A DNA stretch of 38,867 nucleotides from IMG/VR virus record IMGVR_UViG_2526164634_000034, positions 1-38,867 of that record; one strand, written 5' to 3'. This DNA is from a virus (taxonomy: Duplodnaviria > Heunggongvirae > Uroviricota > Caudoviricetes). Positions within the stretch are counted from its first letter, which is position 1. Each line of letters starts with the position of its first letter. The position numbers were made by a program, and so were the translations under genes. The notes beneath the pieces were generated by a model. The model was given only the letters and a program-made list of their open reading frames with translations, searched no databases and was not told the DNA's origin. Below, piece by piece: positions 24,449-34,711 of the stretch.

Positions 24449-24511
24449 TCAAATAAAAAGGCCTGCGATTACCAGCAGGCCTGTTACAAGCTCAGTGATG
24501 TAGATGGTCAT
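24449..24511 (-). CDS. Tiny 20-aa hydrophobic peptide (MTIYITELVTGLLVIAGLFI), speculative
   Basis: ATG overlaps the helicase stop (TGATG) with AGGAGG about 7 nt upstream; not in the ORF track because of its size. Confidence 0.25.
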   Translation of the reverse strand: MTIYITELVTGLLVIAGLFI

Positions 24512-25947
24512 CAGAATCCTCCTTTCTTCTTGGACTGCGGTTCCTCACGTTCACGGCGGCGCATTTCAGCAGACTGTTGGTCTGTGTCATAAATAGCGCC
24601 ATTTGCCTGAATGCAATACACCGTGCCGGTATTGCCATGACGATTGAGACGAAGGATTAGTTCGGTTTCACCAGGTGGAACACTGTCATCAAAAGCACCT
24701 TCACGATGGATCCCCACCCAATAATCGCAATCCTGTTCAATCTGTCCTGTATCGCGCGAGTCACTTGGTAATGGGCGTTTATTGGTTCGGCTTTCCAATG
24801 CGCGGTTAAGCTGTGTCAGAAGCACAACAACGCAATCAAGCTCTTTGGCAAGGTTCTTCAGTCCTTTGGTGATCATGCCGTAAGCAAGGTCGTTGCGATC
24901 GGCCTTCTCAGCGGTCATTAGTGTCAGGTAATCGACCAGAATCATGCCAACACATCCTTTTTCTCGCTTGATTCGACGGCTTTCACTGACGATTTGAGCC
25001 AGAGATAATCCCGGCGTGTCGTCGATGTAAAGCAGGTCGATTTCACTCAAGCGATTTGCTGTTTCGATCGCCCTGTTGAAGTCACCATCGTAATCACCCT
25101 GATAGCCGTCATCAGCGTCATTTGTCGCTGGAAGGTAAAAAATATTTGGGTTAACACCTGACTTCTGCCCTACCAGTTTTTCCAGTATCTGGTCACCGGG
25201 CATTTCAAGGCTGAACATCAGAGCGGGCTTTTTCTCATGCACTGCGCAGTTGATTGCCATCTGGCTGTATAGCGTCGTTTTCCCCATCTTAGGGCGAGCG
25301 CCAATGACAAACAGAGAGCCTTTCACCAGACCTTTCGGTGACAGCATCCTGTCCAGCGATGGGATCCCTGTGCTCATTCCTCGTTGTTCGCCTGACGGGT
25401 CAAATCGCTTCTCAAGGTCGCTAACCCAGTCTTCCATGACCTCACCAAATGAACGAAGGCCGCGACGCGATCCGGTTTTTGCATGGTCTGTCAGTTGCGT
25501 GAAAATCGCCTGAATAGCTTCGTACTTCTGCGTTGCAGTCATTCCGTTGCGGGAATAGAGCAATTCCGTCGCTTCAGTCATGCGGTTGATGGCGTAGCGT
25601 TCCATTGCGGTTTCACGAACCTGCATTGCATAGGCAACGATGTTTGCTGCGCTTGGCGTGTTCTTTGCGATCTCAGAGATATAAGCAAAACCGCCAACAG
25701 ACGCCGTTAACGATTTACGCTCCAGTTCATCGAAAAGCGTCAGGCCATCTACTGGCTTTTGCTCCCGGTGCATTCTGGTTATTTCTTCGAAAAGGATTTT
25801 GTGTGGTCGGCTGTAAAATGAATCGGGCTTCAGCATCGCCAGAACTTTCTGGACGCGCTCACTGCTGTCATCATCCAGAAGCAATCCACCAATCACCGCC
25901 TGCTCTGCCTCGATGCTATGGGGCGGCGCATAAAAATTATCGGTCAT
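24511..25947 (-). CDS. Replicative DNA helicase (DnaB family, P22 gene 12-like)
   Basis: Walker A (GARPKMGKTT) and DnaB-like N-terminal domain; start set to the ATG (MTDNFYAPPHSIEAEQAVIGG) rather than the upstream GTG. Confidence 0.85.
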   Translation of the reverse strand: MTDNFYAPPHSIEAEQAVIGGLLLDDDSSERVQKVLAMLKPDSFYSRPHKILFEEITRMHREQKPVDGLTLFDELERKSLTASVGGFAYISEIAKNTPSAANIVAYAMQVRETAMERYAINRMTEATELLYSRNGMTATQKYEAIQAIFTQLTDHAKTGSRRGLRSFGEVMEDWVSDLEKRFDPSGEQRGMSTGIPSLDRMLSPKGLVKGSLFVIGARPKMGKTTLYSQMAINCAVHEKKPALMFSLEMPGDQILEKLVGQKSGVNPNIFYLPATNDADDGYQGDYDGDFNRAIETANRLSEIDLLYIDDTPGLSLAQIVSESRRIKREKGCVGMILVDYLTLMTAEKADRNDLAYGMITKGLKNLAKELDCVVVLLTQLNRALESRTNKRPLPSDSRDTGQIEQDCDYWVGIHREGAFDDSVPPGETELILRLNRHGNTGTVYCIQANGAIYDTDQQSAEMRRREREEPQSKKKGGF

Positions 25948-26827
25948 CGTGTTCACCCTCACGAACTTTCAGGTAGGTATTATCGTTAAGCAGGAAATCA
26001 AATCCCTTTTTGTGCCAGACGGTTCCGCGCTGATGGTTTGGGCGCTCTTCGAACATCCATCGGCAATTTTCGCCTACGTAGCTCAAATAATTTCTCCAGT
26101 CCTGCATCGTGAAACCATGCCCGTCAAGCTGTCGGGTTATCACTCCGGCTTTGCGCCAGAACGTTCGGATCTGGTTTTTACGCTTGTCATTCAGTGCGCG
26201 GATTCTTGGCGCTTCAGGAAGGATTTCGTGGTAAGCATCGACAACATCCTGACAGCTAACGGAAGGTTTTTTCTTGTCAGACTTTTTGTCTGCTGTGGCA
26301 CTCTCTAATACGTCAGTATTAGAGATATTATTTATATTATTGTTTATGGACAACCGTTGGACAACCGTTGGACAATCTCCGCTGAGAGCCGCGCCATTAC
26401 TGGTGTTTGCGTTGGACAACCGTTGGACAACCGTTGGACAATTTTTTGCCTGAAAATCGTCATATTTAACGATTGTAAACAGGCTAAATTTCTTCCCCAT
26501 CGAGCAAATATTAAGCATACCTTTCGACTCAAAAGTCCGTAATAAGCTCCGAACTTTGTTGTCTGGGATGAATGTTTCTCTGACCAGCGACGGGCGTCCA
26601 GTTATCATCTGACCGCGATCAACAGTTATCGGACCGATATCCGTATTGACGACAGTAGATTCGTGATTAGCCTTGAGGATTAAGTGAAGCCAAAGATGTA
26701 CTGCCTGAGAGTCCTTATAGAGCCTGCTGTCCATAAACTGGCGGTGTATAGAGACATACCCCATACTGGATGCCTCCTGATGTTGTACAGGGTTATGCCT
26801 GTAATCAGCTAACTTAACGACGCCCAT
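25937..26827 (-). CDS. Replication initiator (lambda O / P22 gene 18-like) containing the origin
   Basis: 296 aa; its central region (CPTVVQRLS repeated) is encoded by the iterons; lies immediately upstream of the helicase gene. Confidence 0.8.
   Translation of the reverse strand: MGVVKLADYRHNPVQHQEASSMGYVSIHRQFMDSRLYKDSQAVHLWLHLILKANHESTVVNTDIGPITVDRGQMITGRPSLVRETFIPDNKVRSLLRTFESKGMLNICSMGKKFSLFTIVKYDDFQAKNCPTVVQRLSNANTSNGAALSGDCPTVVQRLSINNNINNISNTDVLESATADKKSDKKKPSVSCQDVVDAYHEILPEAPRIRALNDKRKNQIRTFWRKAGVITRQLDGHGFTMQDWRNYLSYVGENCRWMFEERPNHQRGTVWHKKGFDFLLNDNTYLKVREGEHDDR
26346..26443. repeat. Origin-of-replication iterons with adjacent AT-rich region
   Basis: Two clusters of three 11-bp direct repeats (GGACAACCGTT x2 + GGACAATCTCC at 26348..26380; GTTGGACAACC x2 + GTTGGACAATT at 26411..26443) next to the AT-rich stretch 26310..26345. 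Confidence 0.75.
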
Positions 26828-26975
26828 GCTTCACTCCTGCTTTGGCTAGTCTGTAAACACCAACAAGGCGCTCTGCGAACGCCATGTTATTTGCTGCGGC
26901 TACCACTAATCCCTCAGGTGAATCAGGGTGTCGAATCTCTTCTTTTTCCTGGTATTTCTTACGACGTTTTGTCAT
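26814..26975 (-). CDS. Small basic hypothetical protein (53 aa)
   Basis: ATG at 26975 with AGGAG 5 nt upstream; stop overlaps the initiator start; not in the ORF track (<60 aa). Confidence 0.3.
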   Translation of the reverse strand: MTKRRKKYQEKEEIRHPDSPEGLVVAAANNMAFAERLVGVYRLAKAGVKHGRR

Positions 26976-27009: not shown

Positions 27010-27291
27010 TCAGGCCTCGAAGAATTCGCCGTTCTTCGGGGCTTTTTCTTTTGTCAGGTAATTGGCAAGCCGCTTAGTCAGCTCAGCCATTTCATCGTCT
27101 TCGATTCCGTATTCCAGAACAGCCAGCATCATGCTTACCTGCGAGAAGAAACCATTCTTCCATCGGCTTACCTGATATTCAGGAACCCCCATTGCTCGAG
27201 CGAATGTCTTCTGCCCCATCAGTGCCAGTTTGTTCAGCAAGGCTGACTCGATGCGAGCCGCTTTCTTGCTTTTAGTTGCAATAGTACCCAT
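27010..27291 (-). CDS. cII: CII-like transcriptional activator
   Basis: 93 aa; ...ARIESALLNKLALMG...VSRWK...SMMLAVLEYGIEDDEMAELTK resembles recalled lambda CII. Confidence 0.8.
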   Translation of the reverse strand: MGTIATKSKKAARIESALLNKLALMGQKTFARAMGVPEYQVSRWKNGFFSQVSMMLAVLEYGIEDDEMAELTKRLANYLTKEKAPKNGEFFEA

Positions 27292-27407: not shown

Positions 27408-27638
27408 TTAAGCGGCCATTAATTCAGGCCAGATGCTTTCCCAATCAACCGGATGAAGGTCTTTGCGAGTCACTTCACCATTGCTGAACTTCTCAATCAG
27501 AACACAAAGTGCTGCGCCCAATTCATGATTACGGCTAAGTGCTTTCCTCAAATAGCCGATAGAAGTTCCGCACTTGGTGGCAAATTCTCTCTGCTCTTCC
27601 AGTGAAAGGGAGTTCAGATACAAGCGGAGTTCTTCCAT
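27408..27638 (-). CDS. cro: Cro-like repressor
   Basis: 76-aa ORF divergent from cI across the operator region; not lambda-type Cro. Confidence 0.7.
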   Translation of the reverse strand: MEELRLYLNSLSLEEQREFATKCGTSIGYLRKALSRNHELGAALCVLIEKFSNGEVTRKDLHPVDWESIWPELMAA

Positions 27639-27746: not shown

Positions 27747-28433
27747 ATGGATAAATACGAACAAAGACGACTAAGGCTGATAGAGATAAGAGACCGATTC
27801 TGTAATGGAAAGGCCTCAGAGTTGGCTCGTCGAATAGAAAGGGAACCATCATACGTTTCCAGAATGCTGTATCCGGAAGGAAAAAGCGGAAAAAAACGCA
27901 TTGCTGACGATATGATGGAGCTAATTGAAAAATCTTTTAATCTCCCACGCGGATGGATGGACATGCTTGCAGATGGTAAAGCTGGAGCTACGGACCATCT
28001 TGAGTTTGCGGGTAACGTTCGTGCGGGTTTTGTTCCGGTAATTGGTGAAGCCGTTTTGGGAGTTGATGGCTCAGTGGATATGATTGAATTCAGATCCGGT
28101 TGGTTAAGCATCTACAGCGGCGATAAAGATGCTTACGGTCTGAAGGTTAAGGGTGACAGCATGTGGCCAAGGATTCAGTCAGGAGAATATGTTGTTATTG
28201 AACCAAATACGCCAGTACATCCAGGTGATGAAGTCTTTGTAAGGACCAAAGACGGTCACAACATGATAAAGATCATGAACAAAACAAGAGACGGTGATTA
28301 TCAGTTTAGTAGCATAAACAGTGATCACCGCCCAATCACTCTTCCTGTTGAAGAAGTTGATAAAATGCATTTTGTTTCAGCTATTGTGAAACACACCAGG
28401 TACGTAGACCAGGACGATCTGCCAAAAGTTTGA
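27747..28433 (+). CDS. cI: CI repressor (HTH plus LexA-like S24 autoprotease domain)
   Basis: 228 aa; C-terminal domain with catalytic Ser (GDSMWP) and downstream Lys; divergent from cro. Confidence 0.9.
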   Translation: MDKYEQRRLRLIEIRDRFCNGKASELARRIEREPSYVSRMLYPEGKSGKKRIADDMMELIEKSFNLPRGWMDMLADGKAGATDHLEFAGNVRAGFVPVIGEAVLGVDGSVDMIEFRSGWLSIYSGDKDAYGLKVKGDSMWPRIQSGEYVVIEPNTPVHPGDEVFVRTKDGHNMIKIMNKTRDGDYQFSSINSDHRPITLPVEEVDKMHFVSAIVKHTRYVDQDDLPKV

Positions 28434-28447
28434 GGATAAAGCAGCAA

Positions 28448-28744
28448 ATGTTTATACCCGGCATAGTAGTCGCTGTTGTAATCATCTGCTTCATATGGGC
28501 AAAGTTATCTCCTGTAAGCTCTAAGCATACAGCTGAACTCATGAGGAAGAAGCATCTTATACATGAGGCAGAATCGATAATTAAAAAGTTCAAAGGCATG
28601 TCATACGACGACATGTCATCAGAGCAGATTGCTATGTATAAATGCGCCATTGAGCGCCTTGACTACTTAAACGGACTCAAACCCAAACACACCCCAGTAG
28701 AATCAAAATTGCCGCAATGGCCAAGCAATCCAAATAGCTTCTGA
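28448..28744 (+). CDS. Small single-pass membrane protein at the rex position (candidate exclusion factor)
   Basis: 98 aa from ATG 28448 (GAGGA upstream; the track ORF begins at TTG 28430); N-terminal transmembrane helix FIPGIVVAVVIICFIWAKL; co-oriented with cI and followed by a terminator. Confidence 0.5.
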   Translation: MFIPGIVVAVVIICFIWAKLSPVSSKHTAELMRKKHLIHEAESIIKKFKGMSYDDMSSEQIAMYKCAIERLDYLNGLKPKHTPVESKLPQWPSNPNSF

Positions 28745-33742: not shown

Positions 33743-34711
33743 ATGAGTGAAGTAACAGATTTAGTTGTTATTGAAAAAGCAAATGCAATGACTGTATTTC
33801 AGTCTGCCGACCAGATTGAAGAAATCCTTCAAAAGGTTGAACGTGAAGTTATGTCCTTTGTGCCTGATATCACAACGGCAAAGGGCAGAAAGGAGATCGC
33901 TTCTCTGGCGTATAAAGTTGCGCAGACGAAAACATATCTCGATGGTCTTGGCAAAGACCTTGTTGCTGAACTGAAGGAAATTCCAAAGCTAATTGATGCC
34001 AACCGCAAGACAGTGCGCGATCGCCTTGATGAACTGAAAGCCAAGGCGCGCCAGCCTCTTACTGATTATGAGGAAGAACAGGCGCGGATTAAAGCCGAAG
34101 AAGAAGCTAAGGCAGCAGCTGAAGCTCTCGCAAAGCAAATTGAGTCTGACCATGAAATAGCGATTTTGATGGATCGCGAATTTGACCGCCAAAGAGAAGA
34201 GGCAAGACTCAAAGCGGAGCAGGAAAAGCGAGAGCATGAAGAACGCTTAAAAAGAGAAGCTGAAGAGAAAGCCAGAGCAGAAGCCGAAGCAAAGGCAAAA
34301 GCCGAAATTGAAGCAGCAGCAAGGCGAGAAGCAGAAGCTAAGGCCGCAGCGGAACGTGCAGAGCGTGAACGCATTGAAGCCGAGCAACGAGCACAGCGCG
34401 AAGCAAAAGAGGCAGCAGAACGAGCTGAAAGAGAAAAGCAGGCAGCAATTGAAGCAGAACGCAGAAAAGCACAGGAGGAGGCTGAACAAATCCGTCGCGA
34501 TGCTGAAGCAAAAGAGCAAGCCAGAATAGCAGAAGAAAAAAGAATCAAGGACGAAGAAGAGCGTAGAGCAAAGGATAAAGCTCACCGGAAAGACGTAAAT
34601 AACAAAATACTTGCTGACCTTATCAAGGTTGGTGCATCAGAAGATGTTGCTAAAAATATCATAACAGCCATCGTAAAAGGCGAAGTATTCGCAACAAAAA
34701 TAACCTACTAA
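33743..34711 (+). CDS. Hypothetical 322-aa protein with long charged coiled-coil region
   Basis: Structured N-terminal ~100 aa, then about 170 aa of E/A/K/R-rich heptad-like sequence and a short C-terminal domain; preceded by AAGGAGG. Confidence 0.5.
   Translation: MSEVTDLVVIEKANAMTVFQSADQIEEILQKVEREVMSFVPDITTAKGRKEIASLAYKVAQTKTYLDGLGKDLVAELKEIPKLIDANRKTVRDRLDELKAKARQPLTDYEEEQARIKAEEEAKAAAEALAKQIESDHEIAILMDREFDRQREEARLKAEQEKREHEERLKREAEEKARAEAEAKAKAEIEAAARREAEAKAAAERAERERIEAEQRAQREAKEAAERAEREKQAAIEAERRKAQEEAEQIRRDAEAKEQARIAEEKRIKDEEERRAKDKAHRKDVNNKILADLIKVGASEDVAKNIITAIVKGEVFATKITY

What the first reader, a model, noticed from the sequence alone, without database searches (positions are those of the whole stretch)
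26310..26443. Iteron-type replication origin embedded in the initiator gene
Two triplets of 11-bp direct repeats flank a ~40-bp spacer and adjoin an AT-rich stretch, all inside the O-like gene. The iterons encode the repeated CPTVVQRLS peptide of the initiator. This is a lambda-like ori arrangement but with different iteron sequence, so replication specificity is probably distinct from lambda.
Basis: seen in the sequence. Interest (0 to 1): 0.35.

Follow-up and report, generated by a model that had tools for sequence, protein, structure and literature searches.

The report
Known phage replication origin inside initiator gene
The repeats are real and are almost certainly the replication origin of this P22-like (Sf6/HK620-type) phage, sitting inside its own initiator gene, but the same element is already annotated as a putative origin in phages Sf6, HK620 and L, so the finding is correct but ordinary.

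Summary
Observation confirmed. Two identical 30-nt blocks (26347-26376, 26413-26442) each hold three 11-bp units. Read on the coding (minus) strand the units are TTGTCCAACGG, in clusters 26409-26441 and 26343-26375, 66 bp apart. All of it lies in the part of the 296-aa initiator gene that encodes a predicted disordered linker.

DNA-level selection is clear:
- The 11-bp period is out of frame.
- Third-codon identity is 90-92% in the iterons against 49% in the flanking domains.
- Relatives keep the 3+3/66-bp layout with different units, and the unit core tracks the N-terminal domain, not the C-terminal one.
- The palindrome is kept through compensatory changes (8 of 10 pairs).

The initiator is not a lambda O homologue: it has no PF04492 match, unlike P22 gp18. 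The iterons are direct repeats one helical turn apart, not lambda/P22-type 19-20-bp dyads. The partner is a DnaB-family helicase.

The element matches the rep_origin annotated in Sf6 (2 mismatches in 96 nt) and the 11-bp repeats described for phage L. I found no experimental proof. Novelty: already known. Interest is low.

The parts
25937..26827 (-). Replication initiator gene (296 aa; 'O'/gp18-like of the Sf6/L type). AlphaFold predicts a folded N-terminal winged-helix domain at aa 24-128, a disordered linker at aa 129-188 and a folded C-terminal domain at aa 189-296.
   Evidence: ORF. PHROG 345 'replication initiation O-like', E 5.8e-85. 99% identical to Sf6 gene 43 and HK106/mEp234 'O'. AlphaFold model. 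Weak fold matches to winged-helix proteins, all with E above 0.01.
26409..26441 (-). Upstream iteron cluster: three 11-bp units on the coding strand (TTGTCCAACGG, TTGTCCAACGG, TTGTCCAACGC). It encodes aa 130-140 (CPTVVQRLSNA).
   Evidence: Third-codon identity among six relatives is 92%.
26376..26408 (-). 33-bp G+C-richer spacer (58% GC) between the clusters. It keeps the clusters 66 bp (6 x 11, 22 codons) apart. Its sequence is variable among relatives.
26343..26375 (-). Downstream (A+T-proximal) iteron cluster: TTGTCCAACGG, TTGTCCAACGG, TTGTCCAtaaa. It encodes aa 152-162.
   Evidence: Third-codon identity 90%.
26326..26346 (-). 21-nt A+T tract (95% A+T, A-rich on the coding strand), the presumed DNA-unwinding element. 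It encodes part of the Asn/Ile-rich INNNINNI stretch.
   Evidence: The length is constant at 21 nt in relatives (24 nt in the HK620 type). Third-codon identity 90.5%.
26302..26325 (.). Perfect palindrome TCTCTAATAC-tgac-GTATTAGAGA (10-bp arms, 4-nt centre), the counterpart of the 12+4+12 palindrome of ori-lambda.
   Evidence: Seven sequence variants in relatives; 97.3% of cells paired; 8 of 10 pairs changed on both sides; slid controls at most 54%. Lambda counterpart.
24511..25947 (-). DnaB-family replicative helicase (P22 gp12 type), the presumed partner loaded at the origin. Its ATG at 25947 overlaps the initiator's 3' end by 11 nt.
   Evidence: TIGR03600 phage_DnaB, E 6e-175. Pfam DnaB and DnaB_C. 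Start inferred from the Sf6 gene 44 coordinates and the sequence.

Best explanation
This is the phage's origin of theta replication, placed inside the gene of its own initiator. The steps below are inferred by analogy with lambda O/ori-lambda and SPP1 gp38/oriL; none was shown here.

1. After transcription from the early-right promoter, the initiator's N-terminal winged-helix domain binds the 8-bp cores TGTCCAAC. These recur every 11 bp, about one helical turn, in two triplets 66 bp apart, so the bound proteins line up on one face of the DNA and form a higher-order complex.
2. The complex strains and opens the adjacent 21-nt A+T tract.
3. The initiator's C-terminal domain brings the phage's own DnaB-type helicase, encoded immediately downstream, to the opened DNA. 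No lambda-P-type loader is involved.
4. Host primase and polymerase then take over.

The conserved 10+4+10 palindrome just beyond the A+T tract is part of the origin. Most likely it acts as a DNA-level dyad (a hairpin or cruciform, or a symmetric binding site) that bounds or helps the opening.

Shown here: the anatomy, the nucleotide-level constraint, the co-variation of iterons with the N-terminal domain, and the compensatory conservation of the palindrome.
For: 1. Non-random, unique array: four exact 11-mers and an exact 30-nt duplicate; the core occurs only here.
2. DNA-level selection: the 11-bp period is out of frame within each triplet. Third-codon identity among six relatives is 90-92% in the iterons and 90.5% in the A+T tract, against 49% in both folded domains. 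In about 80 near-identical IMG/VR copies and in Sf6, variation falls mainly in the spacer and in the 3 nt between cores.
3. Conserved architecture with changed sequence: phage L, HK620/HK022, a Klebsiella phage, Enterobacter phage CobraSix and 13 prophage loci all have 3+3 units 66 bp apart at the same codons, with at least five different units. A distant Pseudomonas relative has five phased 11-bp units, an A-rich tract and a dyad.
4. Specificity module: every relative with an N-domain at least 73% identical shares TGTCCAAC, even when the C-domain is only 56% identical. Every relative with an N-domain at most 48% identical has a different core, even when the C-domain is 98% identical, as in HK620.
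5. Position: the iterons, A+T tract and palindrome all lie in DNA encoding the predicted disordered linker, aa 129-188. In lambda the same three elements occupy codons 117-168 of O.
6. The order iterons, A-rich tract, palindrome with a 4-nt centre is the same as in ori-lambda.
7. The palindrome co-varies: 8 of 10 pairs changed on both sides, 0 of 500 shuffles reach the score, and there are no G-T pairs.
8. The gene is followed by an overlapping phage DnaB-family helicase gene.
9. Sf6, HK620 and L records annotate this place as rep_origin. Per the L paper, citing Hilliker 1981, whole-region (but not single-gene) substitution between L and P22 suggests that the L origin lies within the 18-12 region (PMC8022706).
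Against: - There is no experimental test of origin activity or of initiator binding for this iteron type in any paper I could search. All database annotations say 'putative'.
- The initiator has no significant Pfam or NCBIfam family, so its DNA-binding mode is inferred from a predicted fold with only weak PDB matches (E at least 0.013).
- Natural variants with one or three 66-bp modules exist, so the two-triplet layout is not strictly required. At least one one-module copy sits in a degraded prophage.
- The role of the palindrome is unknown even in lambda.
Confidence: 0.85

Rival explanations
1. The repeats are initiator-binding sites whose main role is regulatory (autoregulation, titration or handcuffing of the initiator, or a replication-fork barrier as proposed for SPP1 oriR), and initiation takes place elsewhere.
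For: Iteron arrays in plasmids and SPP1 oriR do have such roles (SPP1 review PMC6316719). The number of modules varies from 1 to 3 in nature, as expected for a dosage-type element.
Against: The array is joined at fixed spacing to an A+T tract and a dyad, exactly as in the proven ori-lambda. No second cluster of cores exists in the 38.9-kb window. No DnaA boxes or other origin-like feature were seen. Substitution data cited for phage L point to its origin lying within the 18-12 region.
Confidence: 0.07
2. The repeat is only a coding duplication of a 22-residue linker peptide (CPTVVQRLS...) with no cis-acting function.
For: The two clusters are in frame (66 bp = 22 codons) and give a repeated peptide. 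Expansion and contraction by whole 22-codon modules occurs.
Against: Within each triplet the 11-bp unit is read in three frames, so protein repetition cannot explain it. Third-codon positions are 90-92% conserved, against 49% in the folded domains. The peptide lies in a predicted disordered linker and differs completely between lineages, while the 3+3/11-bp/66-bp DNA geometry is kept.
Confidence: 0.02
3. For the palindrome only: it acts at the RNA level, either as an intrinsic terminator for transcripts antisense to the initiator gene (hairpin followed by a T-rich tail on the + strand) or as an mRNA hairpin, rather than as a DNA element of the origin.
For: The consensus scan calls 26302-26325 plus TATTATTTAT a terminator-like site on the + strand. 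The phage L record carries predicted terminators on that strand at the same place. Base-pair co-variation fits an RNA stem as well as a DNA dyad.
Against: The stem is weak (3 G-C pairs in 10). None of the 110 pair cells is G-U, although RNA stems usually tolerate wobble pairs. Lambda has a palindrome with a 4-nt centre, and P22 a shorter dyad (6-bp arms, 2-nt centre), at the equivalent place of their origins. No Rfam family matches.
Confidence: 0.15

Closest known systems
Putative origins annotated in Shigella phage Sf6 (AF547987, rep_origin 28385-28480), Salmonella phage L (MW013503, 31650-31726; PMC8022706) and, with a different unit, coliphages HK620 and HK022
   Same: Same gene, same codons and same 3+3 x 11-bp layout. 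The Sf6 feature maps exactly onto window 26347-26442 with 2 mismatches in 96 nt, both between cores. Phage L's published unit TGTCCAACGGA has the same 8-bp core.
   Different: Nothing essential. HK620 and HK022 share the C-terminal half of the protein, the A+T tract and the palindrome, but have a 48%-identical N-domain and the unit TTACCAGCA(A/G)A. The annotations cover only the repeats, not the A+T tract or the palindrome.
ori-lambda within gene O (four iterons, A+T-rich tract, 28-bp palindrome)
   Same: The origin lies inside the initiator gene, in the linker-coding middle. The order iterons, A-rich tract, palindrome with a 4-nt centre runs in the direction of transcription. The iterons and N-domain form a specificity module and the C-domain forms a partner module.
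   Different: - Lambda units are 18-19 bp with internal dyad symmetry, spaced 20/24/23 bp. Here they are 11-bp direct repeats without conserved dyad symmetry, in two triplets.
- The initiator N-domain is not PF04492.
- The partner is a phage DnaB-type helicase, not the P loader for host DnaB.
- The A+T tract is 21 nt, against about 41 nt in lambda.
P22 ori within gene 18
   Same: Same genome position in a closely related phage type (Lederbergvirus). The partner is a DnaB-type helicase (gene 12). The C-terminal domains are weakly similar (25% identity, E 2e-4 pairwise).
   Different: The P22 gp18 N-domain is a true lambda-O homologue (PF04492 E 7e-38; 43% identity to O). Its four roughly 20-bp iterons have lambda's 20/24/23 spacing. 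The window's iterons and N-domain are of another kind.
Bacillus phage SPP1 gp38 (replisome organiser) and oriL inside gene 38
   Same: - This is the only experimentally studied protein with detectable similarity to the window's N-domain (tblastn E 9e-6 over aa 20-127).
- Relatives weakly match PF09681 (23 of 34).
- gp38 binds direct repeats next to an A+T-rich unwinding element inside its own gene and works with a DnaB-family helicase (PMC6316719).
   Different: - SPP1 needs a separate loader (gp39) and has a second origin copy (oriR). Neither is seen here.
- The similarity is below Pfam's threshold for the window protein itself.
- The host is Gram-positive.

Membership tests
Sf6/L-type 11-bp-iteron putative origin (P22-like and HK022-like phages) | Located at the same codons of an orthologous initiator gene that is followed by a DnaB-type helicase gene | tested here: met
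   The gene is 99% identical to Sf6 gene 43. The Sf6 rep_origin maps to window 26347-26442. Helicase.
Sf6/L-type 11-bp-iteron putative origin (P22-like and HK022-like phages) | Six 11-bp direct repeats with core TGTCCAAC in two triplets 66 bp apart | tested here: met
   Published unit for phage L in PMC8022706.
Sf6/L-type 11-bp-iteron putative origin (P22-like and HK022-like phages) | Supports initiator-dependent replication | not testable with these tools
   I found no experimental report. The annotations say 'putative'.
Lambda-type origin / Phage_rep_O initiators (lambda, P22, 434, Stx phages) | Initiator N-terminal domain belongs to Pfam PF04492 (Phage_rep_O) | tested here: not met
   Lambda O and P22 gp18 score E 6e-36 and 7e-38. 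The window protein and 33 relatives have no hit. hhalign family profile against lambda O gives probability 0.2.
Lambda-type origin / Phage_rep_O initiators (lambda, P22, 434, Stx phages) | Iterons are roughly 19-bp units with internal dyad symmetry spaced 20-24 bp | tested here: not met
   Lambda and P22 both show four 20-nt units spaced 20/24/23 bp. The window has 11-bp direct repeats. Relatives' units show no conserved dyad.
Lambda-type origin / Phage_rep_O initiators (lambda, P22, 434, Stx phages) | Origin inside the initiator gene, with iterons followed by an A+T-rich tract and a palindrome | tested here: met
Lambda-type origin / Phage_rep_O initiators (lambda, P22, 434, Stx phages) | Partner is a lambda-P-type loader that recruits host DnaB (lambda proper) | tested here: not met
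   The downstream gene is a DnaB-family helicase (TIGR03600 E 6e-175), as in P22.
Phage replisome organiser (SPP1 gp38, PF09681) with intragenic origin | N-terminal domain homologous to Phage_rep_org_N | tested here: inconclusive
   tblastn to SPP1 gene 38 gives E 9e-6. PF09681 is hit by 23 of 34 relatives (best E 1.9e-5) but not by the window protein. PHROG 'DnaD-like helicase loader' families hit aa 18-186 (E 1e-23 to 8e-10). Fold matches are only generic winged-helix proteins, E at least 0.013.
Phage replisome organiser (SPP1 gp38, PF09681) with intragenic origin | Direct repeats plus an A+T-rich unwinding element within the organiser's own gene | tested here: met
   SPP1 description in PMC6316719.
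Phage replisome organiser (SPP1 gp38, PF09681) with intragenic origin | Separate helicase-loader gene between organiser and helicase, and a second origin copy | tested here: not met
   The initiator and helicase genes overlap with nothing between them. There is no other cluster of cores in the window.

The most novel reading that the evidence does not exclude
This origin family may work with a geometry different from the lambda O-some. Monomeric winged-helix domains would bind 11-bp direct repeats in helical register, in 1-3 interchangeable 66-bp modules. The 10+4+10 dyad, 21 nt beyond the last iteron, is kept through compensatory changes in at least seven sequence variants and is paralleled in lambda and P22. 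It may be an obligatory structural element of lambdoid origins, for example a hairpin or cruciform that marks where the helicase is loaded or limits the opening. To my knowledge its role has never been defined, and such structures may also be what defence systems like Lamassu sense at phage origins (bioRxiv 10.1101/2025.04.02.646746).
Probability: 0.3. Interest if true: 0.4.

Novelty: already known. Interest (0 to 1): 0.2.

Why it matters
The element defines where, and with what specificity, this common group of E. coli, Shigella and Salmonella temperate phages starts replication. That matters for annotating prophages, for building phage-derived replicons and for predicting which phages can complement or interfere with each other. 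The family gives a clean natural series: at least five iteron specificities sit on one scaffold and exchange with the N-terminal domain by recombination at the origin itself. This could be used to study how initiator-DNA specificity evolves. The finding itself adds nothing that the Sf6, HK620 and L annotations did not already state. The co-varying palindrome and the 1/2/3-module polymorphism are small additions.

Tried and rejected
- Lambda O homology: rejected. No PF04492 hit; hhalign probability 0.2.
- P22 ori as the closest model: rejected. P22 gp18 is lambda-O-like with dyad iterons.
- NCBIfam and PDB sequence searches for the initiator: nothing significant.
- Foldseek against PDB: only weak generic winged-helix matches, including staphylococcal plasmid RepA N-domain entries 4pql and 4pt7 at E about 0.1. 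I did not take these as evidence of membership.
- DnaA boxes: none in the whole window.
- A second origin or extra initiator sites: none.
- Rfam families around the origin: none.
- Promoter-like hits inside the iterons (TGGACA...GACAAT): dismissed as by-products of the repeat sequence.
- ssDNA folding of the whole origin (z = -4.1): it reflects the palindrome and partial self-complementarity of this particular iteron. Relatives' iterons lack that dyad, so I did not interpret it further.
- Literature searches for an experimental test of this origin type found none.
- The viral-contig scan with the family alignment returned only near-identical copies. The diversity came from genome contigs and the phage collection.

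Full report
CONTEXT. The window is a P22-like (Lederbergvirus, Sf6/HK620-like) temperate phage. Long stretches are 96-97% identical to Sf6, HK620 and related coliphages.

The early-right operon runs on the minus strand:
- cI-like repressor, 27747-28433 (+)
- cro-like gene, 27408-27638 (-)
- cII, 27010-27291 (-)
- a 53-aa ORF, 26814-26975 (-)
- the 296-aa initiator, 25937-26827 (-)
- a DnaB-family helicase, 24511-25947 (-)

These assignments rest.

The 11-mer TGGACAACCGT occurs exactly four times in 38.9 kb, all within 26347-26434. A 30-nt block is duplicated without mismatch at 26347-26376 and 26413-26442, 66 bp start to start.

On the coding strand the units read TTGTCCAACGG:
- Upstream cluster, 26409-26441: TTGTCCAACGG, TTGTCCAACGG, TTGTCCAACGC.
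- Downstream cluster, 26343-26375: TTGTCCAACGG, TTGTCCAACGG, TTGTCCAtaaa.

The 8-bp core TGTCCAAC is found nowhere else in the window. The repeated peptide CPTVVQRLS (aa 130-138 and 152-160) is confirmed.

The A+T-rich stretch is real. GC falls to 22% around 26300-26349, and 26326-26346 is 95% A+T.

- The spacer is 33-36 bp, not about 40.
- The last unit is partial.
- A perfect 10+4+10 palindrome (TCTCTAATAC tgac GTATTAGAGA on the coding strand, 26302-26325) directly follows the A+T tract and was missed.

2. IT IS SELECTED AS DNA, NOT AS PROTEIN.

An 11-bp unit is read in three different frames within a triplet, so peptide repetition cannot explain the period.

I compared six relatives that share the core but have diverged elsewhere: the window, phage L, and prophages of Escherichia sp., Serratia marcescens, S. 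symbiotica and Pluralibacter. Third-codon-position identity is:

| Region | Third-codon identity |
|---|---|
| N-terminal domain | 49% |
| C-terminal domain | 49% |
| Upstream iteron cluster | 92% |
| Downstream iteron cluster | 90% |
| A+T tract | 90.5% |

In about 80 near-identical IMG/VR copies, and in Sf6, the differences fall mostly in the spacer and in the three bases between cores.

An AlphaFold model built on a 34-sequence alignment gives a folded N-domain (aa 24-128), a disordered linker (aa 129-188, pLDDT below 50) and a folded C-domain (aa 189-296). The iterons (aa 130-162), the A+T tract (about aa 161-167) and the palindrome (aa 168-176) all lie in linker-coding DNA. That is the part of the gene where a cis element costs the protein least.

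3. RELATIVES KEEP THE ARCHITECTURE AND CHANGE THE SEQUENCE.

tblastn and a scan of one genome per species gave relatives down to 23% identity. All enterobacterial ones have three plus three units, 66 bp apart, at the same codons. The units differ:

| Source | Unit |
|---|---|
| Window, Sf6, L, Serratia, Pluralibacter | TGTCCAAC + 3 variable nt |
| HK620, HK022 | TTACCAGCA(A/G)A |
| Klebsiella, Raoultella, Brenneria | (T/A/G)TGCCAACA(G/A)A |
| Enterobacter phage CobraSix, Kosakonia | TGTCCAGCC(G/A)N |
| Leclercia, Silvania | TTACCA units, 12-bp period |

A Pseudomonas phage (Orisa02) has five phased 11-bp AACCAGCAGTG-like units, an A-rich tract and a dyad.

The core follows the N-terminal domain. 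All relatives with an N-domain at least 73% identical to the window's share TGTCCAAC, even when the C-domain is only 56% identical. All relatives with an N-domain at most 48% identical have another core, even when the C-domain is 98% identical, as in HK620. This is the classic lambdoid specificity module, with the mosaic joint at the origin itself.

4. THE PALINDROME IS A CONSERVED ELEMENT.

Seven sequence variants were found. All have 9-10-bp perfect arms and a 4-nt centre, and all start 21 nt (24 nt in the HK620 type) after the last iteron.

On an 11-sequence alignment, 97.3% of cells pair and 8 of 10 pairs have changes on both sides. No shuffle of 500 reaches the co-variation score, and sliding the partner drops pairing to 31-54%. 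There are no G-T pairs. This mildly favours a DNA dyad over an RNA stem.

Lambda has a 12+4+12 palindrome about 41 nt after its last iteron, beyond an A-rich tract. P22 has a shorter dyad in the same place. The tripartite order iterons, A-rich tract, dyad is therefore shared by origins whose iterons and initiator N-domains are unrelated.

5. WHAT IT IS NOT.

Lambda O and P22 gp18 both match Pfam Phage_rep_O (E about 1e-36). They are 43% identical in the N-domain and carry four roughly 20-nt dyad iterons with identical 20/24/23 spacing.

The window's initiator and 33 relatives have no such match. A profile comparison with lambda O finds nothing (probability 0.2).

The N-domain is instead distantly similar to:
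- the SPP1 gp38 replisome organiser (tblastn E 9e-6);
- Pfam PF09681, hit by 23 of 34 relatives, best E 1.9e-5;
- PHROG families named DnaD-like.

Its predicted fold gives only generic, weak winged-helix matches.

The C-domain is weakly similar to that of P22 gp18 (E 2e-4). This fits a shared partner, the phage DnaB-type helicase (TIGR03600).

So 'O-like' is true of role and position but not of the DNA-binding domain.

6. MECHANISM (inferred from lambda and SPP1).

- The winged-helix N-domains bind the cores spaced one helical turn apart and assemble on the two triplets.
- The adjacent A+T tract opens.
- The C-domain delivers the phage helicase, without a P-type or DnaC-type loader.
- Host primase and polymerase follow.

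No DnaA box occurs anywhere in the window (0 found, about 4 expected), and there is no second cluster of cores.

7. KNOWN OR NEW.

The Sf6 GenBank record annotates rep_origin 28385-28480 as 'putative; repeat region reminiscent of the phage lambda origin; similar to phage HK620'. This maps exactly onto window 26347-26442, with two mismatches that both lie between cores. HK620 and L carry the same annotation.

I found no experimental demonstration for this origin type. The finding is therefore a correct rediscovery of an annotated putative origin.

Small additions from this work:
- the compensatory conservation of the palindrome;
- the codon-position evidence for DNA-level selection;
- the tracking of the core by the N-domain;
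- the non-O nature of the DNA-binding domain;
- natural 1-, 2- and 3-module variants (274, 296 and 318 aa). The two-module form is by far the commonest: at least 80 IMG/VR contigs, against two one-module and one three-module contigs.

VERDICT. My confidence that it is the replication origin is about 0.85. Interest is 0.2.

Noticed in passing
L103:1501-2457 (three modules), L106:1501-2325 (one module), L111, L112, L113; the window has two modules: The 66-bp module (one iteron triplet plus spacer, 22 codons) varies in copy number among otherwise about 99% identical genes, giving proteins of 274, 296 and 318 aa. The one-module copy in S. flexneri 8401 lies in a prophage whose immunity region is replaced by an IS4 transposase. 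An L-type one-module protein (P0097, 277 aa) also exists.
   Followed up: partly
window 26302-26325; L006, L007, L010, L012, L107, L108, L109 at the equivalent place: The 10+4+10 palindrome downstream of the A+T tract is kept through compensatory changes in seven sequence variants. It does not strictly follow either the iteron type or the C-domain type: for example TCTCTTCTAC occurs with both TGCCAAC and TGTCCAAC iterons. Its function is unknown.
   Followed up: partly
L016:2492-3418 and L017:2492-3418 (Leclercia and Silvania prophages): In this lineage the iteron period is 12 bp (TTACCA cores, 3+3) instead of 11 bp, so the units are in frame (NYQ-PNYQ-EDYQ) and the gene is 9 codons longer.
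   Followed up: no
window 27012-27054 (+ strand): There is a strong terminator-like hairpin (14 pairs) plus a T-run, antisense to the 3' end of cII. It sits at the position of the oop terminator annotated in P22 and conserved among lambdoid phages (PMC3349717).
   Followed up: no
window 25937-25947: The initiator's stop codon and the helicase's ATG overlap by 11 nt, which suggests translational coupling. The ORF listing extends the helicase ORF to a GTG at 25962, but the Sf6 annotation and the ATG at 25947 give 478 aa.
   Followed up: partly
whole window: There is no match to the DnaA-box consensus TTWTNCACA on either strand (about 4 expected by chance).
   Followed up: no
window 25937-26330 compared with L004 and L005 (HK620, HK022): There is a mosaic joint at the origin. 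From the A+T tract onward HK620 and HK022 are about 98% identical to the window at protein level, whereas upstream (N-domain plus iterons) they are 48% identical. The window's first 22 residues (MGVVKLADYRHN...) also differ from the MSNISNLAEAREARR... start of L, HK620 and CobraSix.
   Followed up: partly
window 26376-26397: The first half of the inter-cluster spacer (coding strand AAACACCAGTA...) keeps a CCA(G) in the 11-bp phase, and it is partly conserved across iteron types (HK620 has AAGCCAGCAAT, 8 of 11 matches to its own unit). It may be a degenerate fourth unit.
   Followed up: no
window 7529-7652 and 34255-34338: Tandem Repeats Finder lists a 42-nt x 3 array and a 6-nt x 14 (AGAAGC) array far from the origin. 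I did not examine them.
   Followed up: no
L022 (Catenulispora yoronensis contig, 501 bp): A 501-bp contig in an actinomycete assembly encodes a 57%-identical match to the enterobacterial initiator's C-domain. It is probably assembly contamination.
   Followed up: no
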